From NCBI GenBank assembly GCA_007376445.1, contig VMGF01000002.1, forward strand, positions 167,928 to 231,927: 64,000 nt of DNA. Reading direction: 5' to 3'. Within the stretch, counting starts at the first letter, position 1. Every line of letters begins with the position of its first letter. Positions 1 to 62,931 of the stretch are shown here, piece by piece. The stretch is from Parcubacteria group bacterium Gr01-1014_3 (lineage in GTDB: Bacteria; Patescibacteriota; Minisyncoccia; UBA6257; WO2-44-18). The position numbers and the translations under genes are program-made. The notes beneath the pieces were generated by a model. That model was not told where the DNA came from. It saw nothing but the letters and a program-made list of their open reading frames with translations, and ran no database searches.

Positions 1-639
1 TTCGAACTTAGAAAACGTCGGACCATTCTCCAGGGTAGAGAAATCTACCGCCGTGCCGAGCTGATGCTCGGAATAACCCTGATCGGCGGAGAATTGATTG
101 GAAGTCCCGGCGCCATAAGTCACCGAATAGCCGGATTTTACCGAAGCCTGCTCATAAAACGATCGGTAGGCGGATAAGATCAGTAAATTCATTCCCTCAG
201 CCTTCGCCGCTTCGAGCAGGCTGCCTAGACGGCCCGAAACTCCCGAGTGGATCAGCTGAGTCCGATTCTTTTCATATAGATATTGCGGATCGAGGCTGGA
301 AAGCTGGGCCGGGGCATAGTTTTCGCTCAAAAAATAAACCTTGGAATATTTCCGCAACAACTCCGGATCGGTGGCGCTCCACTTTTGAAGATTCCCCACG
401 ATGCTAGAGAGTTCGCTGATCTTTACCTCAAAGGCGCCGGTCTTGCTCCGCTCGGTATTTAAGGCCTGGAGCAGATTGTTGTTCTCCTCCCCCGCTTTGA
501 CGAGCGACTGCTCAAGATCGGTGATCTTAGCGCCACGAGCGGTATTCTCTTCTGAGGTTTGCCAGTAGCTATATCCGCCATAACCAAGCAATCCCGCTCC
601 GCCGATGATCAATAAAATTTTGGTTAAATTGAGCTTCAT
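1..639 (-). CDS. D-Ala-D-Ala carboxypeptidase, VanY/M15 family (5' part; continues left of window)
   Basis: Translation of the minus strand from the ATG at 637-639 gives MKLNLTKILLIIGG (membrane anchor) and later ...GYSEHQLGTAVDF, the M15 zinc-binding motif. Not in the ORF track because it is truncated. Confidence 0.65.
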   Translation of the reverse strand, partial: MKLNLTKILLIIGGAGLLGYGGYSYWQTSEENTARGAKITDLEQSLVKAGEENNNLLQALNTERSKTGAFEVKISELSSIVGNLQKWSATDPELLRKYSKVYFLSENYAPAQLSSLDPQYLYEKNRTQLIHSGVSGRLGSLLEAAKAEGMNLLILSAYRSFYEQASVKSGYSVTYGAGTSNQFSADQGYSEHQLGTAVDFSTLENGPTFSKFE

Positions 640-743
640 CCCGTTAGAGATTTTGAAAAATAATTTTATAATATTCGCCGACATTAAAACAATTCATTTT
701 CCCTCGCTATGATTTTGCCGAAGTCGACATTATCTCTAACGGG
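640..743. repeat. CCCGTTAGA inverted-repeat element, copy 1 (CCCGTTAGAGAT ... ATCTCTAACGGG, AT-rich interior)
   Basis: Perfect 12-bp terminal inverted repeat. The right end abuts the ATG of the VanY-like gene on the minus strand (TCTAACGGG|ATG). Confidence 0.7.
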
Positions 744-827
744 ACTTCACTGATTAATTTTAACATGAATTATACCGCCCGATTTTCTTATGGGCTAATT
801 CGTGCGAATTAGCCCATAAGACTAAAT

Positions 828-3163: not shown

Positions 3164-4461
3164 GCGGCTGAATCACCAGCTACATAACCGGTCGTCCAAC
3201 AGAGTTGAAGCGAGTAGCCGCCCGAGGGCCGATCTACATTTAATACGTCGCCAACGAGATAAAGCCATGGGATTAAGCGGGACTGCATTGTTTTGAAATT
3301 CACCTCTTCGAGCGCCACACCCCCGGACGAAACAATCGCTTTATTGGCCCCGAGTAAACCGGAAACATTGAGCGGAACCGCTTTCAGGAGCGCGACTATT
3401 TTCTTTCGAGATTCGGCGCTGACGCTGTGATTGGCCGTCTCCCCGCTGATCTCGGCAATCTCCAAAAGCGCGGACACTAGCGCGGCGGGGATCAGTTTGT
3501 TTAAAACATTTTTCAGCTTTTTATTGCTCTCGCCTATTAAAAGTTCCTGGAGTTTTTTGCGAAGCGAACCAAGATCGGTCTTTGGAAAAAGATCGAGCTC
3601 GATAACTACCTCGCCATATTTTAAAAGTTCGCCAATCTCTTTGCTTATATTCAAGACCGTCGGGCCGCTGATGCCAAAGTGCGTAAAGAGAAGTTTGCCA
3701 TTCACGCTGATCTGTTTTTGCCGGTTTTGTCCTCCAGAGGCGGATCCGCCCCAGGCGGAAAAAATCGTGAGCTTGATGTCTTTTAACGTAACGCCGCCAA
3801 GTTTTTTGGCCCACGCGTCTGAAAGTGCAATCGGAACAAGAGCGAAATCGTTGTCGACGATTGTATGCCCTAGTTTTTTAAGCCATTTGAATCCTTCGCC
3901 GGTCGAGCCGGTCTCCGGACGGGATGTGCCGCCAGTAGCCAGAACGCACGACTTGGTGATAATTTCCCCGCCCACATCGCTAAGCGAAGTGTGGCGGGCA
4001 GGTTTTCCGCCTTTTACTTTGATAATAATATTTTTTGTATCCGGATCGACTGAAAGCCCGGCAACCTCAACGCCCGTCTGAACTTTCACGCCACCCTCTT
4101 TCATATACTCAACCAGCACATCCCAGACGGACTTCGCGCTATCCGATACCGGGAAAATTCTACCCTCATTTTCTTCTTTGGTGGCCATGCCTCTTTTGTT
4201 AAAAAAATCTAGCGCTTCTGTAACTCCAAACTGGGAAAAAGCGGAAAAAAGAAACTGGTCATTGCCTTTGTATTTTTCAACCATCAGACGAACCGCCGGT
4301 TTATTGTTGGTCACATTACACCGCCCACCGCCGGTAATAAGCAGTTTTTTGCCCAAACCAGGATTCTTTTCAAGTAATAAAACAGAACGGCCTTTGCTTG
4401 CCGCTCTACCAGCCGCCATCATCCCAGCCGGCCCTCCGCCGATAACTACGACGTCATACAT
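3160..4461 (-). CDS. HI0933/YhiN-family FAD flavoprotein
   Basis: VVVIGGGPAGMMAA and GGGRCNVTN motifs. Carries the in-frame palindromic element (FSAWGGSASGGQ). Confidence 0.7.
   Translation of the reverse strand: MYDVVVIGGGPAGMMAAGRAASKGRSVLLLEKNPGLGKKLLITGGGRCNVTNNKPAVRLMVEKYKGNDQFLFSAFSQFGVTEALDFFNKRGMATKEENEGRIFPVSDSAKSVWDVLVEYMKEGGVKVQTGVEVAGLSVDPDTKNIIIKVKGGKPARHTSLSDVGGEIITKSCVLATGGTSRPETGSTGEGFKWLKKLGHTIVDNDFALVPIALSDAWAKKLGGVTLKDIKLTIFSAWGGSASGGQNRQKQISVNGKLLFTHFGISGPTVLNISKEIGELLKYGEVVIELDLFPKTDLGSLRKKLQELLIGESNKKLKNVLNKLIPAALVSALLEIAEISGETANHSVSAESRKKIVALLKAVPLNVSGLLGANKAIVSSGGVALEEVNFKTMQSRLIPWLYLVGDVLNVDRPSGGYSLQLCWTTGYVAGDSAA
3730..3762 (-). repeat. in-frame double-hairpin palindromic mini-element, copy 1
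   Basis: Plus strand TCCTCCagaGGCGGATCCGCCccaGGCGGAAAA; sense strand of host gene TTT TCC GCC tgg GGC GGA TCC GCC tct GGA GGA. Confidence 0.8.
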
Positions 4462-9781: not shown

Positions 9782-9868
9782 CGTTTGAGATTAACACGCG
9801 AGGAATTCATTGGGCAAATTCCGCTTAATACGATTAGGCCTATTTGGGTCTAAATGCCGTAGATTGAT

Positions 9869-9936
9869 CCCGTTAGAAACCGCGCCCGCGCTTAGCGCGC
9901 CCCGGAGGGGCCTATGGGCGGGCTGTTTCTAACGGG
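9869..9936. repeat. CCCGTTAGA inverted-repeat element, copy 2 (68 bp, GC-rich nested-hairpin core)
   Basis: CCCGTTAGAAAC ... GTTTCTAACGGG with internal GCCCGC/GCGGGC and GCCCCggaGGGGC stems. Confidence 0.75.
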
Positions 9937-9937
9937 A

Positions 9938-9966
9938 TTGACATATATAATAGAATATGGTATAAT
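9938..9966 (+). promoter_or_regulatory. consensus sigma70 promoter fused to the element (TTGACA-17-TATAAT)
   Basis: TTGACA at 9938-9943, exact 17-nt spacer, TATAAT at 9961-9966. ATG of the next gene at 9976. Confidence 0.6.
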
Positions 9967-11177: not shown

Positions 11178-11281
11178 CTTGATTCCTTTCTTAGAACACC
11201 TCCAATTTAGCAAAGGATTTTAAGTCGCGCAAGTTTGAAATTTTTAAACTTTGAGTTATAATACAAAGCAGTTCTTAATAT

Positions 11282-11572
11282 TCCCCGGTAGCTCAGCGGT
11301 AGAGCAGCTCGCTGTGAAATAGCGCAGCCTCCTAGAGTAATCTAGGTTGAATAACGAGGTGAACTCGGTGAAACCCCTTTGGGGCAATACCGAGCCAAGC
11401 CCAGATGAAAATCTGGGAAGGTGTAGAGACTATCCCGAAAGGGAGTACTCCAGCGAAAGCTGGCGGAAGCGCCTCGATCCGACAAAGGTCGGATATGATA
11501 TAGTCCACCCCTATTAGTAATAGTAGGACAAGTGTAACGAGAAGGTCCCAGGTTCGATCCCTGGCCGGGGAG
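11282..11572 (+). tRNA. tRNA interrupted by a roughly 219-nt group I intron in the anticodon loop; mature anticodon most likely GUU (Asn), alternatively UGU (Thr)
   Basis: 5' half TCCCCGG-TA-GCTC-AGCGGTA-GAGC-A-GCTCG-CUGU; 3' half UAA-CGAGA-AGGTC-CCAGG-TTCGATC-CCTGG-CCGGGGA-G. P1 pairs exon GCUGU with intron GCAGC through a U.G wobble. Confidence 0.7.
11316..11534 (+). ncRNA. group I intron (self-splicing type) within the tRNA
   Basis: Conserved core elements GACUAUC (R, about 11428) and GAUAUAGUCC (S, about 11498); terminal G; 5' exon ends in U. Confidence 0.65.
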
Positions 11573-12808: not shown

Positions 12809-12814
12809 ATTTAG

Positions 12815-12882
12815 CCTCCCTAAATCAAATCCCTGATTTGATCGGGCGACCTAACTCACCACATAGTGAGTTAGGTTTAGCC
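12815..12882 (-). promoter_or_regulatory. conserved structured 5' leader (family 3, copy A)
   Basis: mRNA sense: GGCUAAACC-[ACCUAACUCAC..GUGAGUUAGGU hairpin]-CGCCCG-[AUCAAAU cagggAUUUGAU hairpin]-UUAGGGAGG-N6-AUG. Confidence 0.6.
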
Positions 12883-12949
12883 TCAAATCACTGGCCCAAC
12901 TATACCACTATATATAGAAGACGTCCAGGCTTGGTTCTAAGCCGCCCTA

Positions 12950-12978: not shown

Positions 12979-13006
12979 GTGCCTATCAAATAAAAAGGAA
13001 CGAAGT

Positions 13007-13106
13007 CCCGTTAGAACTGGCCAATACGGCTATTTCTAGGGAGGCATCGTAAAAAAAATACACATAAAATATGAAGATAATTAAAAATATCACCAGTTCT
13101 AACGGG
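13007..13106. repeat. CCCGTTAGA inverted-repeat element, copy 3 (CCCGTTAGAAC ... GTTCTAACGGG)
   Basis: 11-bp perfect terminal inverted repeat around an AT-rich interior that contains GGGAGG. The right end abuts the ATG at 13107. Confidence 0.65.
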
Positions 13107-14612
13107 ATGAAAAAACTCATCGTTTTCGGCCTTTTAATGGGCCTGATCGCAGTCAATTTAATACAAGTTAACGTCGTGGAAGCGGCCAGCGAGCCGTGGT
13201 GCTATTTCATCTTCCAGAAGTGCAATGACAACGATGATTCCAGCGCGCCTAGCTCCGCTCCGGCGACTAATAATCCTCCGGTTTGGACTAGTGGGCAGAC
13301 TTCTTATAGCGCCAAAACTGGCGAGCTTTTACAGTTCACGGTAAACGCCATGGATCCGGAAGGAGCCACGCTCATCTATCGGGCTTCTTTTATTCCAAAC
13401 AGCGCGAACTTTAACGAAAACACTCATGTCTTTTCTTGGACTCCAAGTGACAACCAGCTTGGTAATTATTCCATTGAATTCAGCGCTTATGACGGCACTA
13501 ACCGCATTTACCAGAACATTAACGTCCAGGTCATTAAGGGCGTTCAGAATCCGGGCAACAGCCGCCCAGTTTGGACCACGATTCCAAGTCAAACCGCTTA
13601 TGTCGGCCAGACTTTGCAATTCTCTGTCTATGCCAACGACAACGACGGCGACACTGTAAACTATTCCGCTTTGAATTTACCGAGCGGCTCTAACTTCCAA
13701 GAATCCAACCGGACTTTCACTTGGAATCCGAGCTCCGGCCAGGTTGGTTCTCACATCGTCAGCTTCCGCGCTTCTGATGGCACCAACTATGCCGATATGG
13801 GCGTGACTATCACTGTCATCAATGGCACTCCGGTCGTGGGAAATAATAAACCGGTTTTAACCGGCTTCAACCCGCCGATCCGCGCCAATGTCGGTAAGCT
13901 CTATATTTATGATGTTAATTCTACTGATCCAGATGGCGACCCGATCTTCTATATTTTGAATTCCGGTCCGGCCGGTCTGACGATGAATTCCGTCAACGGC
14001 GTTATCAGCTGGGTTCCGTCCGCGAATCAGTTGAACTTCAATCAGGTCAACTTCTCCGTCTCTGACGGCAAGACTCCGACTACTGTCAGCTTCTTCATCT
14101 TCGTGGAAGCCGCGACCGCTCCGGCTCCGGCTGAACCGATCATTGTTGAGCCAAGCGAAGCTCGCGTAGTTATCAGCGATTTGAGCATGCGCGCTGAGGA
14201 TGGCGTGGTCATTGTTTCTTGGAATACCAATATTCCGACCCGCGCTCGCGTGATCTTCGGTGATACTTCCGAAGCGACTAAGACCCGCAACTTTACCTAT
14301 GACGACGCGACTCCGGAAATTCTCGCTATGAGCCGGGACCATGAAGTGAAGCTTGAAGATTTGGAAATGGAAAAGGTTTATTACCTCCGCGCGGTCGCCA
14401 AGACCGACGGCCAGACCGTCACCAGCCGCGAAGTCACCTTTGTGCAACTTCCTGGCCAGGGTGGTCTCCAGTTCTTTGGAGCCGCTTCCCTCTTGTCCAC
14501 CTTGGGCAACTTGCTGACGGAACCGATCGTACTCTTACTCGCGATTGTCGGCATGTTGATCTTTATGTATCTCCAGAATAAGAAAATCGCGAAGCTGAAA
14601 TCACCGTTATAA
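13107..14612 (+). CDS. cell-surface protein with four Ig-like (He_PIG/cadherin-like) repeats and a C-terminal TM anchor
   Basis: Signal peptide MKKLIVFGLLMGLIAV. Four roughly 90-aa repeats (PVWT..G.T..F.V.A.D.DGD). C-terminal hydrophobic helix. An alternative start exists at 13071. Confidence 0.6.
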   Translation: MKKLIVFGLLMGLIAVNLIQVNVVEAASEPWCYFIFQKCNDNDDSSAPSSAPATNNPPVWTSGQTSYSAKTGELLQFTVNAMDPEGATLIYRASFIPNSANFNENTHVFSWTPSDNQLGNYSIEFSAYDGTNRIYQNINVQVIKGVQNPGNSRPVWTTIPSQTAYVGQTLQFSVYANDNDGDTVNYSALNLPSGSNFQESNRTFTWNPSSGQVGSHIVSFRASDGTNYADMGVTITVINGTPVVGNNKPVLTGFNPPIRANVGKLYIYDVNSTDPDGDPIFYILNSGPAGLTMNSVNGVISWVPSANQLNFNQVNFSVSDGKTPTTVSFFIFVEAATAPAPAEPIIVEPSEARVVISDLSMRAEDGVVIVSWNTNIPTRARVIFGDTSEATKTRNFTYDDATPEILAMSRDHEVKLEDLEMEKVYYLRAVAKTDGQTVTSREVTFVQLPGQGGLQFFGAASLLSTLGNLLTEPIVLLLAIVGMLIFMYLQNKKIAKLKSPL

Positions 14613-31486: not shown

Positions 31487-32590
31487 CTAAATCTCTTCCG
31501 CTAGCTCCTCCAACAGTTTCTTCGCCTTCGCGCTTAATTTTTTCGGAGTTTTCACGTGCCACTCTATATAAAGATCACCGCGGCCAAAACCGCCAAAGCG
31601 CTTCATGCCGCGTCCGGACACCCGAAGTTGTTCTTTCAAATTAAAATCCGCCGGAATTTCCACGTGAATCTTCTCGCCGGAAATATCCTGAACCTCGATC
31701 TTTTTTCCAAGCACCGCGTCCACGAAGCCAACTTCTTTTTTCAGCAACAAATCATCGCCATGGCGTTCAAAGTTCTTATCGGCTTTCACTTTAATACGAA
31801 TATATAAGTCGCCCTGCTCGGCGCCGCGCTCTCCCACTTCACCAGCCTTGGTAATCTTCATCATCTGGCCATCACCGACACCCGGAGTTATATCGATCTC
31901 AAGAGTCCTCTCGCCTATCGCGCGGCCAACGCCTTTGCAGGTTGAGCAGGTCTTGTTTGGGATCTGGCCGGTGCCGCTGCACTTGGCGCAGGCCCGGACT
32001 TGGGAAAAACTGCCGAAGAATGTATTCCGCGCTTCACGGATCTCTCCGCGGCCGTTGCAGGTGTCACAGGTAGTCGTGCCTTCCTTTGGGAAATGACCGA
32101 CGCCAGCGCATTCTTTACAAGCTATAAAAGTTTTAATGTGAACCGCCCGCTTCACTCCGGTAAACGCCTCTTCAAGAGTAATTTGTTGAACCACTTCAAG
32201 ATCCGCGCCCCGCTGATAAGTCTTTCGTTTCTTAACTCCCAAGCCCTCGAAGATCGCGTCAAAAACTTCGCTCATATTACCCATATCTTCAAAATTGGAC
32301 GGATCAAAGCCCGCGCCGAAATCAAAACCACCGAAAGGATTGCCAAATGGGCCGTCTCCTCCCGAGGAGGATCCGCCTCCGGCGGAAAAAACCCGGCCAA
32401 ACTGGTCGTACTGCGACCGTTTGTCTTTGTTGGAGAGCACCTGATAAGCCTCATTGATCTCTTTAAATTTCTGCTCATCGCCGTGAGATTTATCCGGATG
32501 ATACTGATGCGCCAGCTTGCGATAAGCTTTTTTAATATCTTCCTCAGTCGCTTCTTTCTCCACGCCTAAAATTTTGTAGTAGTCTTTCAT
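31487..32590 (-). CDS. dnaJ: molecular chaperone DnaJ
   Basis: J domain with HPD. G/F region. Four CxxCxGxG repeats. Carries the in-frame palindromic element in the G/F region. Confidence 0.9.
   Translation of the reverse strand: MKDYYKILGVEKEATEEDIKKAYRKLAHQYHPDKSHGDEQKFKEINEAYQVLSNKDKRSQYDQFGRVFSAGGGSSSGGDGPFGNPFGGFDFGAGFDPSNFEDMGNMSEVFDAIFEGLGVKKRKTYQRGADLEVVQQITLEEAFTGVKRAVHIKTFIACKECAGVGHFPKEGTTTCDTCNGRGEIREARNTFFGSFSQVRACAKCSGTGQIPNKTCSTCKGVGRAIGERTLEIDITPGVGDGQMMKITKAGEVGERGAEQGDLYIRIKVKADKNFERHGDDLLLKKEVGFVDAVLGKKIEVQDISGEKIHVEIPADFNLKEQLRVSGRGMKRFGGFGRGDLYIEWHVKTPKKLSAKAKKLLEELAEEI
32357..32391 (-). repeat. in-frame double-hairpin palindromic mini-element, copy 2
   Basis: TCCTCCcgaGGAGGATCCGCCtccGGCGGAAAAAA; sense strand encodes FSAGGGSSSGGD. 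Confidence 0.8.
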
Positions 32591-33666: not shown

Positions 33667-35541
33667 TTAAGCGGCCTTCGGGGGTTCTTGCTTACTATTC
33701 ATCGCCGACCCGATTTTTTGGATCTCAGCTGACAACTCCGAAACAGCCGCTTTAATTGCCTCGCTGTCCTGGCCATCTTTGACCGATTTTACTTTTTCGA
33801 TCTTGGCGGTGATAGCGTCTTGAATTTCTTTGGGAACTTTATCGCCCGCGTCTTTCAAGGATTTTTCGGAAACATAAACCAGCTGCTCGGCGTTGTTTTT
33901 TGACTCCACTAAATCTTTTTTCTTGCGGTCTTCATCGGCGTGCTTAGCCGCTTCGTTTTTTAATCGCTCGATCTCTTCCTTGGATAAATTCGTGGAAGCC
34001 TCGATGCGAACAGATTGCGTGCGGCCGGATGCTTTGTCTTTGGCAGAGACGCTCAAAATGCCGTTGGCATCAATATCAAAAGTAACTTCAACTTGCGGCG
34101 CGCCGCGCGGAGACGGAGGAATACCATCCAGAATAAATCTGGCTAAAGTTTTATTGTCGGAAGCCATCGAACGCTCACCCTGAAGAATATGGATCTCTAC
34201 TGAAGTTTGATTATCAGCCGCGGTTGAGAATACCTGACTCTTGGCAGTCGGAATGGTGGTATTTTTTTCGATCAGTTTGGTCATTACGCTTCCTAGGGTT
34301 TCAATACCAACCGAAAGCGGGGTAACATCGAGCAAAAGCACGTCTTTAACTTCACCTTCTGGTTTACGGCCTTCTTCTTTAGCCGACAGAATTTCTGCCT
34401 GAACCGCGGCGCCAATCGCCACTACTTCGTCCGGATTCACGCCGAGATGCGGCTCTTTGCCGAACATTTTTTTCACCGCTTCCTGTATCGCCGGCATACG
34501 AGTCTGCCCGCCAACCATAACGATCTCATTGATGTCAGAAATTTTAAATCCGGCGTCTTTCACCGTCTTTTGGGTAAGCTCGATCGAACGATCCAGCATA
34601 TCCTGAACCAAAGATTCCAATTTGGCGCGAGTCAGCTTCATCGCGAAGTGTTTCGGACCGGAAGCATCGGAGCTGATGTAAGGAATGCTGATCTCCGTCT
34701 CCAAGGACGCGGAAAGTTCATGTTTGGCGCGCTCAGCCGCCTCTTTCAGGCGCTGAACCGCGAGCATATCCTTACTGACATCAATACCCTCCTGTTTTTT
34801 GTACTCTGCGACTAAAAATTCATTTATCCGTTTATCAAAATCATCACCACCCAGGTGCGTATCGCCGCCAGTCGCGCGGACTTCGATAGTATTGTCGGCG
34901 ATCTCCAGTACGGATACATCAAAGGTACCGCCACCAAAATCATAAACGACGATCTTTTCATTCTTCGCTTTGTTTAAACCATAGGCCAACGCCGCCGCGG
35001 TCGGCTCGTTGATAATGCGATGTACTTTAAATCCAGCGATCTCACCGGCGTTTTTGGTGGCCTGACGCTGGCTGTCGTCAAAATATGCCGGCACAGTGAT
35101 CACGGCGCCATCGATCTTTTCACCAAGACGCGCCTCGGCGTCAGCTTTGAGTTTGGCAAGAACCATGGCGGAAATTTCTTCCGGCTTGTACCAGGTAGCC
35201 TGCCCTGAGACCCCCGAAGGGTCACCCATTTTCACATCCACGCCGCCGGTCGCGGATTCTTTGATGTCGTATGGCAGCCATTTCTTATCGCTCTGCACCT
35301 CCGCGTCGGAAAATTTGCGGCCGATCAGCCGCTTTACGGAATAAATAGTGTTCTTCGGATTTACGCCGCCCTGGCGTTTAGCCAAAAGCCCGGCAACACG
35401 TTCGTTGTTTTTAGTGATCGCCACGATCGAAGGCGTGGTGCGGTTGCCTTCGGAATTTTCTAAAATTCTCGGCGAACCAGCGTCCACTACCGCCACCGCG
35501 GAATTAGTTGTACCAAGATCAATACCAATTATTTTACTCAT
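33667..35541 (-). CDS. dnaK: molecular chaperone DnaK (Hsp70)
   Basis: [18 protein letters not shown] and VGGQTRMP Hsp70 signatures. Confidence 0.95.
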
Positions 35542-35659
35542 GTGAAATTTATAATTTACAATTTTTAATTTTCATTCAATTTTCAATTTGTTAATTTTCA
35601 AGTTGTTTGTTTATTGGTACTTGTAAATTGATTGGAAATTGTTAATTGATAATTGAAAA

Positions 35660-36109
35660 TTATTTATTCTGACCTTTGCTTAATTTAATTCTTACTGGCT
35701 TTATAACCTTACCGTTCAGTATATACCCTTGTTCCAATACCTCGGCGATCGATCCTGGCGGATGATCGGATTCCATCTCGCCTACCGCTTCGTGAAAGGA
35801 TGGATCAAATGTTCCGCCAGCTTCCACTATCATCGCTTCCACTCCCTGACGCTTAAGCGTATCGGCGATCTGAGACCTTATCATATATATACCCTTATCC
35901 ACCGGTCCTTGTTTCTCCAGCGCCGCGATAGCCAGGTCAAAGTTATCCAATGAACCAACCAGGTCCTTAATAATAGAGATGTTGGCGAATTTAGCGAACT
36001 CTTCAAAACGTTTTTGCTCATCTTTCTGATAATTGATCAGATCAGCCTTGGCGCGCTTCCAGCCGTTGAGATATTCCTCTGTTAAATTTTCCGTCTTTTT
36101 ATCATCCAT
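35660..36109 (-). CDS. grpE: nucleotide exchange factor GrpE
   Basis: GrpE-like coiled-coil plus C-terminal beta domain (GTFDPSFHEAV). Confidence 0.85.
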   Translation of the reverse strand: MDDKKTENLTEEYLNGWKRAKADLINYQKDEQKRFEEFAKFANISIIKDLVGSLDNFDLAIAALEKQGPVDKGIYMIRSQIADTLKRQGVEAMIVEAGGTFDPSFHEAVGEMESDHPPGSIAEVLEQGYILNGKVIKPVRIKLSKGQNK

Positions 36110-37121: not shown

Positions 37122-37248
37122 CCGCTTCGCGGCAAATTCCAAATGACAAATTTCAATTATCAAATAAATTCCGGGTCGTCCAGAATTTCGATCATTGATA
37201 TTTGGAGCTTATTTGTAATTTGGCGCTTGGAATTTGGAATTTTTAATT

Positions 37249-38712
37249 ATGCAAATCTTTAATTCTCTCTCTCAAACAAAAGAAAAACTCGAAGACGTGA
37301 TAACCGGCAAAAAAGTCCGGCTCTTCGTCTGCGGTCCCACGGTCTATCACGACGCGCACATCGGCAACGCCCGCACCTATATTTCTTTTGATATTATCGC
37401 CCGCTATCTCCGCTCGGCCGGTTTCAGAGTTTATTATCTCCAGAATATCACCGATATCGACGATAAGATCATCCGCCGCTCGGCCGCGGAAAACACTACC
37501 CCGCAAGCGCTCGCCAAAAAATATGAAAAGATCTATCACGAAGATGAGAAAAAGCTCGGAATCATCTCGGTCAATAAATACGCCCGGGCGACTTCCTATA
37601 TAAAGCAGATCGTGAAGCAGGTGCAGACCCTGATCGACAAAGGCCACGCCTACAAGATTGACGACGGATATTACTTCGACCTCTCCACTTTTCCGGATTA
37701 CGGCAAACTCGCCCGCCGGACGGTACTTCAGGCGGAAGATTCCACTTCGCGTATTGATGAGAATCCGAATAAAAAAAATCGGGGTGATTTCGTGCTGTGG
37801 AAATTTTCTTCCGCCCAAGGCGGATCCTCCTCCGGAGGAAAAGAAGGCGCCGCCCCTACCGGGGGCGAGCCTCGCCCTGAGGCAGGGCGGGAGCCATCTT
37901 GGAACACCAAGTTAGGCAGTGGACGGCCAGGCTGGCACATCGAAGACACGGCGATCACCGAGTATCAGTTCGGCCCACAGTATGATATTCACGGTGGCGC
38001 GATCGATCTGAAGTTCCCCCATCACGAAGCCGAGATCGCCCAACAGGAGGCCGCCTCCGGCAAAAAACCGATGGTGAAGATCTGGATGCACGCGGGCTTT
38101 TTAAATATCGGCGGAGAGAAGATGTCGAAGAGCTTTGGTGAATTCGTCACGATCCGGGAATTTTTAGAAAAACATTCCGCGCTAGTCTTGCGATTCATGG
38201 TGGCAAGTCACCACTACCGAGCGCCGATGGATTACTCTGAGGCGTTGCTCCGGCAATCCAAAAATACCTTACTCAATCTAATGGGTTTTCTGGGGAAGTT
38301 GGAGATGGCCCGAGGCTCCGCCAAAGCCTTGGCGGCGGAAGAGTTAGTAAAGAAAATGGCGGAGGAATTCCAAGCCGCCATGCAAGACGATTTCAATACG
38401 CCAGAAGCTCTCGCGGCAATATTTTCGCTGATCAATCAGTTCCAAAAATCTGTTTGGGAGCTGGATAAAAAATCAGCCAAGTTGATCACAAAATCCATCG
38501 TCAGCTCGCTTGAAGTCCTAGGGCTAGAGCTTCCGAAGGTCAAAATCCCCTCTCAAATCCAGAAAAAAGTGAAGGAGCGAGAGTTATACAGAGGAAATGC
38601 ACAATTTATCCCAGCAGACACTTTGCGGCAAGAAATAGAAGCGTTAGGATATACAGTAGACGACACACCCCGCGGACCATTAGTATTGCCGCGGGAAATA
38701 ACTAATTCCTAA
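37249..38712 (+). CDS. cysS: cysteine--tRNA ligase
   Basis: HIGN (HIGH), KMSKS and GRPGWHIE motifs. About 27-aa insertion after DFVLWK made of palindromic elements. Confidence 0.85.
   Translation: MQIFNSLSQTKEKLEDVITGKKVRLFVCGPTVYHDAHIGNARTYISFDIIARYLRSAGFRVYYLQNITDIDDKIIRRSAAENTTPQALAKKYEKIYHEDEKKLGIISVNKYARATSYIKQIVKQVQTLIDKGHAYKIDDGYYFDLSTFPDYGKLARRTVLQAEDSTSRIDENPNKKNRGDFVLWKFSSAQGGSSSGGKEGAAPTGGEPRPEAGREPSWNTKLGSGRPGWHIEDTAITEYQFGPQYDIHGGAIDLKFPHHEAEIAQQEAASGKKPMVKIWMHAGFLNIGGEKMSKSFGEFVTIREFLEKHSALVLRFMVASHHYRAPMDYSEALLRQSKNTLLNLMGFLGKLEMARGSAKALAAEELVKKMAEEFQAAMQDDFNTPEALAAIFSLINQFQKSVWELDKKSAKLITKSIVSSLEVLGLELPKVKIPSQIQKKVKERELYRGNAQFIPADTLRQEIEALGYTVDDTPRGPLVLPREITNS
37806..37842 (+). 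repeat. in-frame double-hairpin palindromic mini-element, copy 3 (followed by three more GC hairpins to about 37896)
   Basis: TTT TCT TCC GCC caa GGC GGA TCC TCC tcc GGA GGA AAA encodes FSSAQGGSSSGGK. Confidence 0.8.
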
Positions 38713-38811
38713 ATTGTTGAATTTTAAATTTTTAATTATAAATTTGAAATTAATTTAAAATTTCAAAATTTAAAATTGAAAATTACGCAAAGTTAGGTTA
38801 ATTAGAAATTT

Positions 38812-40813: not shown

Positions 40814-40839
40814 TTCTGGTATTATATCTTCAGTATTTT

Positions 40840-40907
40840 GGCTAAACCAAATTCGTTATGTGGCGAATTTGGTCGCCCGATCAAATCAGGGATTTGATTT
40901 AGGGAGG
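40840..40907 (+). promoter_or_regulatory. conserved structured 5' leader (family 3, copy C)
   Basis: GGCUAAACC-[AAAUUCG..CGAAUUU hairpin]-GGUCGCCCG-[AUCAAAUcagggAUUUGAU]-UUAGGGAGG-N5-AUG. Confidence 0.6.
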
Positions 40908-43597: not shown

Positions 43598-43625
43598 ATA
43601 CCCCCAACCTTGGGGGTATTAATTT
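43598..43625 (+). terminator. rho-independent terminator (ATACCCCCAAccTTGGGGGTAT + T/A run)
   Basis: 10-bp perfect stem directly after the tRNA. Confidence 0.65.
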
Positions 43626-43639
43626 ACAATTTTCAATTA

Positions 43640-44497
43640 TCACTTTTCAAACTTGATCGCGCTAATAGCAAGGAACATTGGGATCTCTTTTCGGATACGA
43701 TTCTCCGCCTTGGCTCGCGGTCCTGGTTCGCTCTCTTTGTGCGATATCCACTCTTCCAGGTTCTCAACTAGAAAACCCGCTTTAGCGAGCGAACCAAAAT
43801 ACGCCGAAAGCGGCCGGTGGAAAGACCAGGTAATTTCCTTTGGTTTATCGCCCGGATGCATCTGGATCGGCACTTTCATCTCCGACATATAACTGTCGAT
43901 GCGGCGATACTGAGATTTCCGCTCTTCGTCCCAGCCCCAGCCGCTTTGGCGTGGAATGCGGAAAACCGGATGATTCATCACGATCACTAACTTACCGCCG
44001 AATTTCAAGATTCGATGAGCTTCACGGAAAACACCATCCATTTCGGCGATATTTTGAACCGTAAGAATCTTTACCACAGCATCAAAGTAATTAGTCTTGA
44101 AGAGGCTTAACTTATCGGCTGGAGCCACTTCATAGCGGATCTTTTTATCCGAACGCTTCCGAGCAATATTGATCAGCTCCGTCGAGACATCAACTCCGAT
44201 AACTTCGGCGCCTTTTTTGAAAAATTCGCGCGCGAAATATCCCTGTCCGCAAGCAAGGTCAAGAATATACTGCCCTTTCCGGAGATCGAGCAATCGCAAA
44301 ACACCAGGTAAAATCACCTGGCTCTGATAGGTACCTTCCCTGCCCTCCATCATCGTGTCGTACCATTTGGCAACTTTGCCCCAGGAGGTTGGTTTATCCC
44401 ACCTAGCTTTCGCTTGGCGAGGCTCGCCCAAAGGTTGGGCGGCTTCTCTTCGCGGACCGCCCCGGCTCGGGCCTGGTCTACCTTCCATTTTTCGCAT
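43640..44497 (-). CDS. class I SAM-dependent methyltransferase with Arg-rich N-terminal extension
   Basis: ILDLACGQGYF motif I, post-I acidic residue, motif II; about 60-aa basic N-terminal tail. Confidence 0.7.
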   Translation of the reverse strand: MRKMEGRPGPSRGGPRREAAQPLGEPRQAKARWDKPTSWGKVAKWYDTMMEGREGTYQSQVILPGVLRLLDLRKGQYILDLACGQGYFAREFFKKGAEVIGVDVSTELINIARKRSDKKIRYEVAPADKLSLFKTNYFDAVVKILTVQNIAEMDGVFREAHRILKFGGKLVIVMNHPVFRIPRQSGWGWDEERKSQYRRIDSYMSEMKVPIQMHPGDKPKEITWSFHRPLSAYFGSLAKAGFLVENLEEWISHKESEPGPRAKAENRIRKEIPMFLAISAIKFEK

Positions 44498-50701: not shown

Positions 50702-51377
50702 TGAAATCCGCCAGAGTTAAAGCTTTCTCTTTTTTTCCTCCGGAGGAGGATCCGCCTCTGGCGGAAAATTGACCTACCCGCGTCCTCTCCAGGCCGGCCA
50801 AATACCCGCCAACTTTTAATTTTTTGCCCAAATCCCGCGCCAATGAACGGATATAAACTCCTGGGCCGGTCACCACCCGCAATTCTAAAAATGGCCACTT
50901 ATATTTCAATAAGGAGATCTTTTTAATGAATGCCGGGCGGGATTTCATCTTAACTTTCTGACCTTTCCTGGCGAGCTTATAAGCTTCTTTGCCGGCGATC
51001 TTGATCGCGCTGAAAATCGGCGGTGTCTGGCGGATATTTCCAACGAATTTTTTCATTGCCACGCGAATCTCTTTCAGCTCCGGTTTCTTGGAAAATTCAA
51101 CCGCGGATTTTTCACCTTCATCATCGTCGGTCGTGCTGTAAAATCCTAGCTTAATCTTGGCTAGATATTCTTTTTCTTTTTTGACGACTTCGCCGAGTTG
51201 TTTTGTGCCAGGACGGCCGATGCCGATCACCAGAACACCGCTGGCCAGCGGATCTAAAGTTCCAGCATGCCCGATCTTGCGGATGCCGGTGATTTTCCGG
51301 AGGCGGTTCAAAAAGCCGTTAGAAGTCGGTCCTTTCGGTTTATACGCGCCATAAATACCTTCAATGGTCTTCTTCAT
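50682..51377 (-). CDS. truB: tRNA pseudouridine(55) synthase
   Basis: GHAGTLDPLASGVL catalytic motif. C-terminal PUA-like region interrupted by the in-frame element. Confidence 0.85.
   Translation of the reverse strand: MKKTIEGIYGAYKPKGPTSNGFLNRLRKITGIRKIGHAGTLDPLASGVLVIGIGRPGTKQLGEVVKKEKEYLAKIKLGFYSTTDDDEGEKSAVEFSKKPELKEIRVAMKKFVGNIRQTPPIFSAIKIAGKEAYKLARKGQKVKMKSRPAFIKKISLLKYKWPFLELRVVTGPGVYIRSLARDLGKKLKVGGYLAGLERTRVGQFSARGGSSSGGKKEKALTLADFTKLTNN
50736..50768 (-). repeat. in-frame double-hairpin palindromic mini-element, copy 4
   Basis: TCCTCCggaGGAGGATCCGCCtctGGCGGAAAA; sense strand encodes FSARGGSSSGGKK. Confidence 0.8.
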
Positions 51378-56082: not shown

Positions 56083-56089
56083 CTAGCCA

Positions 56090-56155
56090 CCTCCCTAAAT
56101 CAAATCCCTGATTTGATCGGGCGACCAACTTGCCACAAGGCAAGTTGGTTTAGCC
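56090..56155 (-). promoter_or_regulatory. conserved structured 5' leader (family 3, copy B)
   Basis: GGCUAAACC-[AACUUGCC uugu GGCAAGUU]-GGUCGCCCG-[AUCAAAUcagggAUUUGAU]-UUAGGGAGG-N7-AUG. Confidence 0.6.
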
Positions 56156-56233
56156 TTCTCTAGTTATAAAAGTGCCGAACTACCTTAACAGAAACCTTTG
56201 CGATAGTCAATTAGACCCACGCCGTTGGCGGGG

Positions 56234-57725: not shown

Positions 57726-57845
57726 ACAACCTCCTTGCCTCCGCCAGTTGGCGGATGGCGGGCGAATACTGTAAAGAAACTTTGAATATATTAATAAAAT
57801 ACACCGATAAAGTCAACCGCTCGATTAATTTCTCATGATATTGAT

Positions 57846-57913
57846 CCCGTTAGAAGTCGCGCCCGCGCTTTGCGCGCCCCAAAGGGGCCTATGGGCGGGC
57901 TACTTCTAACGGG
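57846..57913. repeat. CCCGTTAGA inverted-repeat element, copy 4 (68 bp, about 90% identical to copy 2 with compensatory stem changes)
   Basis: CCCGTTAGAAGT ... ACTTCTAACGGG; inner GCCCCaaaGGGGC hairpin. Confidence 0.75.
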
Positions 57914-57914
57914 A

Positions 57915-57943
57915 TTGACAATAGGCTTAATGTATGCTATAAT
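57915..57943 (+). promoter_or_regulatory. consensus sigma70 promoter fused to the element (TTGACA-17-TATAAT)
   Basis: Same offset from the element as at 9938. AAGGAGA RBS and ATG at 57993. Confidence 0.6.

Positions 57944-60879: not shown

Positions 60880-62931
<2,052 letters not shown>

What the first reader, a model, noticed from the sequence alone, without database searches (positions are those of the whole stretch)
9869..9966. 68-bp GC-rich structured palindrome (CCCGTTAGA ends) fused 1 nt upstream of a perfect TTGACA-17-TATAAT promoter; stem extension covaries between copies
Copy 2 is CCCGTTAGAAAC-[GCCCGC..GCGGGC and GCCCCggaGGGGC nested stems]-GTTTCTAACGGG-a-TTGACA-N17-TATAAT, then ATG 10 nt later. 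Copy 4 at 57846-57943 is about 90% identical with the same offsets. Every difference in a stem is compensated: AAAC/GTTT against AAGT/ACTT, and loop gga against aaa. The two copies drive unrelated small orphan genes (a C39-like peptidase domain protein and a 143-aa GC-rich protein). Each sits between divergently transcribed genes. This is consistent with a mobile promoter cassette, an insulator-terminator plus promoter, or a regulator-binding cruciform.
Basis: seen in the sequence. Interest (0 to 1): 0.75.

Follow-up and report, generated by a model that had tools for sequence, protein, structure and literature searches.

The report
Mobile hairpin inserted into promoter −35
The GC-rich palindrome is a copy of a small mobile DNA hairpin, widespread in ultra-small (CPR) bacteria and some other phyla, that landed inside the −35 box of an existing promoter and rebuilt the box by duplicating four bases; other family members land on start codons and rebuild those.

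Summary
Two about 91% identical 70-bp palindromes lie at 9868-9937 and 57845-57914, each abutting a 12/12 TTGACA-17-TATAAT promoter, and their stem differences are compensated.

The promoter is not part of the repeat. Orthologous loci in related genomes have the same promoters, a single ATTGACA and no palindrome. So both copies are insertions flanked by a 4-bp target-site duplication, TTGA, that rebuilds the −35 hexamer. The "a" spacer is the element's last base.

The window holds two more members with unrelated AT-rich interiors (639-744, 13006-13107), each ending exactly at a gene's ATG.

An exact-end scan found at least 119 loci, mostly Patescibacteria, plus Omnitrophota, Planctomycetota and others, and 7 viral contigs. 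Of 130 elements, 83 have a flush 4-5-bp duplication. Of 131, 91 end in A|TG heading a long ORF. Among TTGA-type sites, 16 of 22 are −35 boxes.

This fits a MITE-like non-autonomous element: an invariant 10-bp end, three variable but complementary positions, and a Y-shaped GC-rich subfamily. It rebuilds the signal it lands in.

No transposase, Rfam family or published description was found. The mobilising mechanism and any effect on expression remain inferred.

The parts
9868..9937 (.). Copy 2: 70-bp GC-rich member (Y-shaped hairpin). Terminal inverted repeats TCCCGTTAGAAAC (9868-9880) and GTTTCTAACGGGA (9925-9937).
   Evidence: absent from orthologous loci L123 and L122
9864..9867 (.). Left copy of the 4-bp target-site duplication TTGA of copy 2
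9938..9941 (.). Right copy of the duplication TTGA of copy 2; these are the first four bases of the rebuilt −35 hexamer
9938..9966 (+). Host promoter TTGACA-17-TATAAT (TG-extended −10) of the C39-like peptidase gene (ATG 9976). It pre-exists the insertion.
   Evidence: same promoter without the element in L123, L122 and L124
57845..57914 (.). Copy 4: 70-bp GC-rich member. Terminal repeats TCCCGTTAGAAGT and ACTTCTAACGGGA.
   Evidence: absent from the 88%-identity orthologous locus L128
57841..57844 (.). Left copy of the duplication TTGA of copy 4
57915..57943 (+). Host promoter TTGACA-17-TATAAT of the 143-aa gene (ATG 57993). Its first four bases are the right copy of the duplication.
639..744 (-). 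Copy 1: 106-bp AT-rich member. It has a 5-bp duplication CTTCA (634-638 and 745-749). Its end base plus the duplication gives the ATG (639-637, minus strand) of a VanY-like gene; the upstream copy reads GTGAAG.
13006..13107 (+). Copy 3: 102-bp AT-rich member in the 5' leader of a secreted He_PIG/Big_9 protein gene. Its last base A is the A of the true start codon (13107-13109). The flanking duplication has decayed (CGAAG against TGAAA).
   Evidence: homologues start MKK...; the homologue locus L138 has no element and L137 has one in its −35 box

Best explanation
Copies 2 and 4 are two independent insertions of a GC-rich subfamily of a non-autonomous, MITE-like transposable element.

Anatomy (shown). 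The element is bounded by inverted repeats. These have an invariant 10-bp core, TCCCGTTAGA/TCTAACGGGA (the outermost pair is T-A, occasionally C-G). Three more positions vary between copies but stay complementary within a copy. Insertion duplicates 4 bp of target, rarely 3 or 5.

The two focal copies (shown). Both landed in ATTGA|CA, the −35 hexamer of a pre-existing sigma-70-type promoter. The duplicated TTGA rebuilds TTGACA at the right junction, so the promoter survives and looks 'fused' to the palindrome.

The rest of the family (shown). Most other members sit at A|TGRR. There the element's terminal A plus the duplicated TG rebuilds the start codon. The window's copies 1 and 3 are of this kind.

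Mechanism (inferred). An unidentified transposase acts in trans, makes a 4-bp staggered cut, and prefers TGRR/TTGA targets. Purifying selection then keeps only insertions that rebuild the signal they hit. The strict complementarity of the ends, and the two covarying internal hairpins of the GC-rich subfamily, are taken to be a DNA-level requirement (a hairpin or cruciform form, or symmetric binding) and not an RNA function.

Effect on the two promoters (inferred). The effect is at most modulatory: the upstream UP-element zone is replaced by a GC-rich palindrome that could extrude as a cruciform.
For: Family and chance:
- The window holds 4 copies against 0.00 expected.
There are also 7 viral contigs and 73 metagenome loci of the GC-rich subfamily.

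Duplication:
- 83 of 130 elements have a flush 4-5-bp direct repeat, against 12 of 130 when flanks are shuffled.
- Closely related elements carry different duplications, so the repeat is made at insertion.

Empty sites:
- L123 (75% identity orthologue) and L122 (82%) read ...GCCGTAGATTGACATATATAATAGAAT... with no element.
- L128 (88%) has ATTGACT-N17-TATAAT with no element.

−35 targeting:
- 16 of 22 TTGA-duplication sites have TAnnnT 16-18 nt after the rebuilt hexamer, against 6% of all TTGA sites.
- The GC-rich subfamily sits in these sites in both orientations, 6 against 8.

Start-codon class:
- 91 of 131 elements end in A|TG heading an ORF of at least 60 codons, and the upstream copy is ATG in 63 of those 91.
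- Homologues confirm the rebuilt ATG as the true N-terminus of the copy-3 gene.

Other MITE traits:
- Elements are nested inside one another.
- One copy is translated in frame inside RsmH.

Ends:
- Positions 11-13 are Watson-Crick paired in 88, 87 and 80 of 91 copies although their sequence varies.
- In the GC-rich subfamily, pair 12/67 is AU in 30 and GC in 13 sequences, and pair 13/66 is UA in 28 and CG in 14, with 1 broken.
- G·U is no commoner on the sense strand than on the antisense strand, 21 against 18.
Against: - No autonomous copy or transposase was found in the window, in about 1 Mb of fetched loci, or bounded by matching ends.
- An ordinary DDE transposase does not need three variable-but-complementary end positions or internal hairpins. 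Those features fit a folded single-strand intermediate better.
- The start-codon bias is stronger than a loose target preference plus selection obviously predicts. TGA stop codons are not used, since the base before the duplication is A in 61 of 63 sites.
This is unexplained.
- All family statistics are conditioned on exact 10-mer ends.
Confidence: 0.85

Rival explanations
1. Mobile promoter cassette: palindrome and TTGACA-17-TATAAT move together as one unit and bring a strong promoter to orphan genes.
For: - Both window copies abut perfect promoters at the same offset.
- Some AT-rich members do carry a Shine-Dalgarno sequence, and perhaps promoter-like sequence, inside the element just before the rebuilt ATG.
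Against: - The same promoters are present without the palindrome at orthologous loci.
- Similarity between the copies stops at TTGACA (D4).
- The left flank repeats TTGA.
- The subfamily sits at −35 boxes in both orientations and at many non-promoter sites.
Confidence: 0.03
2. Structured RNA element (cis-regulator, insulator or terminator, or small RNA) whose hairpins are maintained for RNA function.
For: - Predicted folds are strong, with z about −6.
- P3 and the end positions show compensatory changes.
- Start-codon members lie in 5' leaders with a strong orientation bias, 36 against 2 for the interior motif and 12 against 3 in the GC-rich subfamily. Upstream ORFs end at the TAA in the right end or at an ATGA overlap. 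RNA-level effects on translation are therefore plausible for that class.
Against: - No Rfam family matches at gathering or permissive thresholds.
- There is no T-tract or terminator call.
- Copy 4 lies upstream of both divergent promoters, and copy 2 lies upstream of its gene's −35.
- There is no sense-strand G·U excess.
- AT-rich members have unrelated interiors.
Confidence: 0.07
3. Exapted protein-binding site or cruciform: after insertion, the palindrome is used by a host regulator or nucleoid protein to control the adjacent divergent promoters.
For: - It is a perfect 13-bp inverted repeat with a 10-bp core invariant across phyla.
- It lies between divergent promoters, where negative supercoiling would favour extrusion (inference).
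Against: - The flanking genes are unrelated.
- The same ends occur at start codons, inside coding sequence and nested in other copies.
- Orthologous promoters function without it.
- Conservation of the ends is explained by the mobilising enzyme.
Confidence: 0.1
4. Same mobile element, but moved as a folded single strand by a hairpin-recognising recombinase (HUH/Y1 type or tyrosine type, as for IS200/IS605 ends, REPINs or integron attC) and not by a DDE cut-and-paste enzyme.
For: - End positions 11-13 covary.
- The Y- or T-shaped architecture recurs with unrelated hairpin sequences.
- Minimal 27-bp pure-hairpin members exist.
- No DDE transposase was found.
Against: - The flush duplications are of variable sequence. 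This is the hallmark of staggered-cut transposition and is not produced by IS200/IS605, RAYT or integron systems.
- The order of GTTAGA and TCTAAC relative to the loop is the reverse of attC R boxes (read from the sequence).
- AT-rich members lack internal hairpins.
Confidence: 0.2
5. Chance palindromes or a recent local duplication that included the flanking genes.
For: None beyond there being only two near-identical copies in the window.
Against: - 0 matches in 100 shuffles.
- The flanks are unrelated beyond TTGA and TTGACA.
- There are hundreds of copies in other genomes.
Confidence: 0.01

Closest known systems
Bacterial MITEs such as Neisseria Correia elements (CREE/NEMIS), pneumococcal RUP and enterobacterial ERIC
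   Same: They are short (about 50-160 bp) and non-coding, with terminal inverted repeats, target-site duplications and long predicted hairpins. They are often found 5' of genes and show presence/absence polymorphism. These features are reviewed in PMC3184786.
   Different: - The duplication here is 4 bp (TGRR or TTGA), not TA.
- The conserved end is only 10 bp plus 3 covarying positions.
- Interiors are largely unrelated between subfamilies.
- Insertion is precisely on start codons or −35 hexamers, and the signal is rebuilt.
- The spread covers several phyla and phages.
- No cognate IS is known.
Neisseria REP2 and Borrelia IR repeats
   Same: These repeats lie immediately upstream of genes and supply a promoter, a ribosome-binding site and the ATG, with internal stem-loops near the 5' end (PMC3184786). 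The AT-rich members here likewise end at the ATG. Many carry GGAGG 9-13 nt before it.
   Different: No terminal inverted repeats or target duplications are described for REP2 or the Borrelia IRs in the passages read. Here the ATG is rebuilt from the element's last A plus the duplicated TG.
Rickettsia palindromic elements (RPE)
   Same: These are palindromic mobile repeats that can sit in frame inside protein genes. They are listed in PMC3184786; the in-frame property is from general knowledge. Here L004 2402-2472 is translated as a 25-residue insert in RsmH.
   Different: In-frame coding insertions are the exception here. Most copies are at gene starts or promoters.
Integron attC sites
   Same: The ends are conserved while the interior varies in length and sequence but stays self-complementary. 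GTTAGA/TCTAAC resembles the R-box consensus GTTRRRY/RYYYAAC (general knowledge).
   Different: - The order of the boxes relative to the loop is inverted.
- Copies are dispersed and do not follow cassettes in arrays.
- They have flanking duplications.
- No integrase is in the context.
REP/REPIN elements with RAYT transposases, and IS200/IS605 ends
   Same: These are GC-rich extragenic hairpins whose structure is maintained at the DNA level.
   Different: Those systems make no target duplication and have a conserved GTAG or a fixed tetranucleotide target (general knowledge). Neither is seen here.

Membership tests
MITE (non-autonomous TIR transposable element) | Terminal inverted repeats | tested here: met
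   The 10-bp core is present at both ends by construction of the scan. A further 3 or more bp are complementary in 112 of 131 copies, against a mode of 0 when arms come from different copies.
MITE (non-autonomous TIR transposable element) | Flanking target-site duplication made at insertion | tested here: met
   83 of 130 have a flush 4-5-bp repeat, against 12 of 130 in the control. Related copies have different duplications. Copies 2 and 4 have TTGA.
MITE (non-autonomous TIR transposable element) | Small, no transposase gene, multiple dispersed copies | tested here: met
   Copies are 27-135 bp. There are 4 in this 64-kb window and several per 8-kb locus in some genomes.
MITE (non-autonomous TIR transposable element) | Empty orthologous sites (insertion polymorphism) | tested here: met
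   Alignments A2 and A3. L138 against the window and L137 for the copy-3 gene.
MITE (non-autonomous TIR transposable element) | Cognate autonomous IS or transposase with matching ends | tested here: inconclusive
   None in the 64-kb window or in about 1 Mb of loci. The GIY-YIG lead was rejected. Whole genomes could not be scanned for long end-to-end pairs.
Intrinsic terminator or insulator-terminator | GC-rich hairpin followed by a T-run | tested here: not met
   0 terminator-like sites at either copy. The hairpin is followed by TTGACA.
Integron attC | R''(RYYYAAC)...R'(GTTRRRY) order, at the 3' ends of cassettes in arrays next to intI/attI | tested here: not met
   The order is GTTAGA...TCTAAC. 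Copies are 3-45 kb apart at gene 5' ends.
Known structured RNA family (Rfam 15) | Covariance-model match at or near the gathering score | tested here: not met
   No hit at gathering. The best permissive hit on the element scores 15.4 bits, E = 4.3. None in six other loci.
REP/REPIN | No target duplication; conserved 5' GTAG; RAYT gene flanked by copies | tested here: not met
   Duplications are present. There is no GTAG at the foot of the hairpin (read). The RAYT association was not tested genome-wide.

The most novel reading that the evidence does not exclude
The family is more than a passively filtered MITE. It actively homes to the two core expression signals of bacterial genes, the ATG start codon and the TTGACA −35 box, and rebuilds each through its 4-bp duplication and terminal A. 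It is moved through a folded hairpin intermediate by an enzyme class not yet linked to such elements. Its AT-rich members act as portable ribosome-binding-site and translational-coupling (perhaps promoter) adapters shared across CPR bacteria, Omnitrophota, Planctomycetota and their phages.
Probability: 0.25. Interest if true: 0.8.

Novelty: new variant of a known kind. Interest (0 to 1): 0.6.

Why it matters
- For this locus, it replaces a tempting reading (a mobile promoter) with a tested one: a host promoter that survived an insertion because the duplication rebuilt its −35 box.
- More broadly, an apparently undescribed family of mobile hairpins sits at a large share of sampled gene starts and promoters in genome-reduced, uncultivated bacteria across several phyla and in phages.
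- The family misleads gene callers. NCBI starts the copy-3 gene inside the element.
- It breaks assemblies. The Logan contig L121 ends at copy 4.
- It could modulate transcription and translation initiation.
- The elements give natural markers for horizontal exchange between CPR bacteria, Omnitrophota and Planctomycetota.
- They offer a test case for how a selfish element can minimise harm in very compact genomes.

Tried and rejected
- Rfam at gathering and permissive thresholds found no family for the element.
- Literature searches by the end sequences and by MITE, CPR and start-codon terms found nothing relevant. Only a general MITE review was useful.
- Autonomous copy. I looked for pairs of ends 0.13-6 kb apart with matching extension and duplication. 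These gave only nested elements and neighbouring small copies. 'Solo' ends are degenerate partners.
- GIY-YIG nuclease as cargo or mobiliser. Only one locus (L090) has a gene fragment inside an element, and 8 GIY-YIG ORFs in 1 Mb show no association.
- Transposase in the window. Pfam on 28 ORFs shows housekeeping genes only.
- Inherited crossover core in place of a true duplication. Rejected because related copies differ in their duplications.
- 5- or 6-bp duplication with asymmetric ends. Rejected because C...G-ended copies keep a flush 4-bp repeat.
- RNA-level constraint. There is no sense-strand G·U excess.
- A −10 signal aligned to the internal CGGGAT motif was not seen.
- attC-like reading. 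The box order is wrong.
- RNAalifold on MAFFT alignments recovered only the outer stems, because the inner hairpins are misaligned. I did not build a covariance model.

Full report
**1. The observation**

- CCCGTTAGA...TCTAACGGG spans 9869-9936 and 57846-57913.
- The two copies are 91% identical over 81 nt (family D4).
- Both are followed by TTGACA-17-TATAAT with 12 of 12 consensus matches and a TG-extended −10.
- Both lie between divergent genes.
- As single strands they fold far better than shuffles, at −49 and −48 kcal/mol with z about −6.
- The only differences are AAAC/GTTT against AAGT/ACTT (compensated) and three loop bases.

Three details change the picture.
- The inverted repeat extends one pair further (T...A). 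The element is therefore 70 bp, and the 'a' before TTGACA is its last base.
- The four bases TTGA that begin the −35 hexamer also occur directly to the left of each copy (9864-9867, 57841-57844).
- The exact ends bound two more elements with unrelated AT-rich interiors, at 639-744 and 13006-13107. The pattern occurs 4 times against 0.00 expected.

**2. Origin of the window**

The window is a housekeeping chromosomal region encoding DnaK/DnaJ, SecDF, CysRS, DnaB, LigA, Obg and RNR. It comes from the MAG 'Parcubacteria group bacterium Gr01-1014_3'.

**3. A large family with target-site duplications**

- Most are Patescibacteria of many classes.
- Others are Omnitrophota, Planctomycetota (Sedimentisphaerales, Phycisphaerae), Elusimicrobia, WOR-3 and Stahlbacteria, plus MAGs labelled Gammaproteobacteria, Bdellovibrionales, Desulfobacterales and Nitrospirae.
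- Seven IMG/VR viral contigs also carry the element.

Interiors are 31-92 nt and largely unrelated.

Directly outside the T...A ends, 83 of 130 elements have a flush 4-bp (81) or 5-bp (2) direct repeat. Only 12 of 130 do when right flanks are shuffled. Eight more have 3 bp.

Copies whose outermost pair is C...G keep a flush 4-bp repeat. The ends are therefore symmetric and the duplication is 4 bp.

Closely related elements carry different duplications. The repeat is therefore made at each insertion and is not an inherited core.

Elements are found nested inside one another. Degenerate copies with a mutated arm are common. Minimal 27-bp pure hairpins exist.

**4. Empty sites for the two focal copies**

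Copy 2. The closest non-identical orthologues of the C39-like peptidase gene are P0003 (75% identity) and P0002 (82%).
- Their upstream regions read ...AAATGCCGTAGATTGACATATATAATAGAATGTGGTACAAT...ATG (L123) and ...ATTGACATATATAATAGAATATGGTATAAT...ATG (L122).
- This is the window's sequence with the 70 bp and one TTGA removed.
- A 64% orthologue also has a TTGACA promoter without the element.

Copy 4. The 88% orthologue (L128) has ...ATTGACTTTTAGCTTATATATGCTATAAT... without the element.

The promoters therefore belong to the host and predate the insertions. This refutes the reading that the promoter travels with the palindrome.

**5. Where the family lands**

Start codons. Of 131 elements, 91 are followed by TG such that the element's last A plus TG heads an ORF of at least 60 codons. 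The upstream copy of the duplication is preceded by A in 77 of those 91 and reads ATG in 63.

Reconstructed target. Among oriented ATG-type sites the empty target is A|TGRR. The base before the duplication is A in 61 of 63. The third duplicated base is A in 46 and G in 12, and the fourth is A in 48 and G in 14.

The window's copies 1 and 3 are of this class.
- Copy 1 has the 5-bp duplication TGAAG on the gene strand, with GTGAAG upstream and ATGAAG at the VanY-like gene's start.
- Copy 3 ends at the ATG of a secreted He_PIG/Big_9 protein.
- Homologues of that protein begin MKK followed by hydrophobic residues. The rebuilt ATG at 13107 is therefore the true start, and the public 513-aa model that starts at 13071 inside the element is probably wrong.
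- In other lineages the same gene family has no element (L138), or has a family member in its −35 box: TTGA|C...G|TTGACT-17-TACAGT in L137.

−35 boxes. The second site class has the duplication TTGA.
- Of 22 such sites, 16 have a TAnnnT 16-18 nt after the rebuilt hexamer.
- Only 6% of all TTGA occurrences in the same sequences do.

The GC-rich subfamily of copies 2 and 4 was sampled by one metagenome scan (73 loci).
- Its duplications are TCAA (8), TGAA (7), TTGA (6), TGAG (4) and TTCA (3).
- It sits at −35 boxes in both orientations, 6 against 8.
- At start codons one orientation dominates, 12 against 3.
- The same holds for the whole family: an interior CGGGD motif occurs 36 times in the gene sense and 2 times in the opposite sense.

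I read this as orientation-neutral insertion followed by selection where the element is transcribed and translated over.

Reading frames. Ribosomes starting at the upstream decoy ATG meet one of three outcomes.
- They stop at the TAA inside the right end, 4 nt before the real ATG (22 cases).
- They stop at an overlapping ATGA (10 cases).
- They read through in frame.

Several subfamilies place GGAGG 9-13 nt before the rebuilt ATG, paired with CCTCC in the left arm.

One GC-rich copy is translated as a 25-residue in-frame insert in RsmH.

**6. The structure**

Beyond the invariant 10 bp, the arms are complementary for 3 or more further bp in 112 of 131 copies. The mode is 0 when arms come from different copies. 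Positions 11, 12 and 13 are Watson-Crick paired in 88, 87 and 80 of 91 copies, although their sequence varies (AAT, AGT, AGC, AAA, GAT, CCT and others). Pairing then falls to background.

In 43 GC-rich sequences, pair 12/67 is AU in 30 and GC in 13. Pair 13/66 is UA in 28 and CG in 14, with one broken.

Inside, the GC-rich subfamily has two hairpins.
- The second covaries: GCCCC/GGGGC, GGTCC/GGACC, GCCC/GGGC and GGTCT/AGACC.
- Sequence-unrelated short members such as L013, L014, L022, L025 and L087 adopt the same Y shape.

However:
- the first non-Watson-Crick position is G·U on the sense strand in 21 cases and on the antisense strand in 18;
- copies 2 and 4 lie upstream of their genes' −35 boxes;
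- copy 4 also lies upstream of the best divergent promoter candidate, at 57816-57788.

The constraint is therefore more likely on DNA than on RNA. AT-rich members lack the inner hairpins yet have duplications, so the inner hairpins are not needed for insertion.

**7. What it is and how it probably works**

Shown:
- it is a non-autonomous mobile element with inverted-repeat ends and a 4-bp duplication;
- two copies landed in −35 hexamers and two on start codons in this window;
- the hit signal is rebuilt by the duplication.

Inferred:
- an unidentified enzyme acts in trans and prefers TGRR/TTGA;
- selection retains harmless insertions;
- complementarity is required at the DNA level;
- effects on the two promoters are modest.

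I could not find the mobilising gene.

Two facts sit uneasily with a plain DDE model.
- The ends have variable but complementary positions.
- The bias to ATG is very strong, while TGA stop codons are avoided.

A hairpin-recognising recombinase remains a live alternative, but such systems are not known to make variable-sequence duplications.

**8. Comparison with known systems**

The element meets every testable defining feature of a MITE except a known autonomous partner.

It resembles Correia, RUP and ERIC elements in form. It resembles Neisseria REP2 and Borrelia IR repeats in supplying a ribosome-binding site and ATG (PMC3184786). It resembles Rickettsia RPEs in occasional in-frame coding insertions.

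It differs in:
- its 4-bp TGRR/TTGA duplication;
- rebuilding start codons and −35 boxes;
- its short invariant core with covarying extension;
- its spread across phyla.

It is not an intrinsic terminator, an attC site, a REP/REPIN or a known Rfam family.

I found no description of it in the searchable literature. That is absence from that library, not proof of novelty.

**9. Limits**

- Family statistics are conditioned on exact 10-mer ends with a T...A outer pair, and on the first 119 genome loci returned.
- MAG taxonomic labels may include mis-binned contigs.
- Promoter calls are consensus matches.
- No expression data were available.
- Eleven copies with an AC(C/T)TG left flank and only TG shared with the right flank remain unexplained (about 13 by eye).

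Noticed in passing
window 12809-12895 (-), 56083-56160 (-), 40830-40906 (+): A conserved leader of about 75 nt occurs three times, each between a sigma-70-like promoter and the ATG of an unrelated gene of about 100 aa. Its sequence is GGCTAAACC-hairpin-GGTCGCCCGATCAAATCAGGGATTTGATTTAGGGAGG. The first hairpin covaries (ACTCAC/GTGAGT, CTTGCC/GGCAAG, TTCG/CGAA) and the rest is invariant. It has no Rfam match and is a candidate cis-regulatory RNA.
   Followed up: partly
window 11227-11527: Group I intron (RF00028, 57.8 bits) inside a tRNA-like gene. tRNA-like halves show up in the repeat search around 11272-11318. ARAGORN did not call the interrupted tRNA.
   Followed up: no
window 13071-13106: The public gene model (P0020, 513 aa) starts at an ATG inside copy 3. 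Homologues show that the true start is the rebuilt ATG at 13107, giving 501 aa.
   Followed up: yes
L016, L024, L038, L047, L048, L054, L060, L065, L110, L111, L116: Eleven family members share the left flank AC(C/T)TG, often 5-12 nt after a −10-like box. They share only TG with the right flank and lack a 4-bp duplication. This is unexplained.
   Followed up: partly
L004 2402-2472: A GC-rich family member is translated in frame as a 25-residue insert (DPVRSRPLEHESATITLGRPASNGI) in the rRNA methyltransferase RsmH of a Nomurabacteria MAG.
   Followed up: yes
L090 5361-5518: An element of about 158 bp, with a degenerate right end, encloses the N-terminal 45 codons of a small GIY-YIG nuclease gene. 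No general GIY-YIG association was found.
   Followed up: yes
L121 (Logan contig of the same organism): An independent assembly of the same genome breaks 110 nt upstream of the 143-aa gene, at copy 4. This is consistent with the repeat fragmenting assemblies.
   Followed up: no
window 3730-3764, 32357-32391, 37810-37844, 50736-50770: Four copies of a double-hairpin motif, TCCTCCnGAGGnGGATCCGCCnnnGGCGGAAAAAA, that look like bidirectional intrinsic terminators (D1).
   Followed up: no
window 35540-35670, 37134-37250, 38717-38784, 43620-43650, 61298-61325, 62403-62437: Phased AATTT-rich short repeats recur in several intergenic regions near dnaK, cysS, dnaB and ligA (D2-D5, I8-I16). Their function is unknown.
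   Followed up: no
L134 3735-3828 (viral contig): A viral copy contains a nested mini-hairpin with a variant core, CCCTGTTAGAGG-TTTA-CCTCTAACAGGG, so diverged core variants of the family exist.
   Followed up: no
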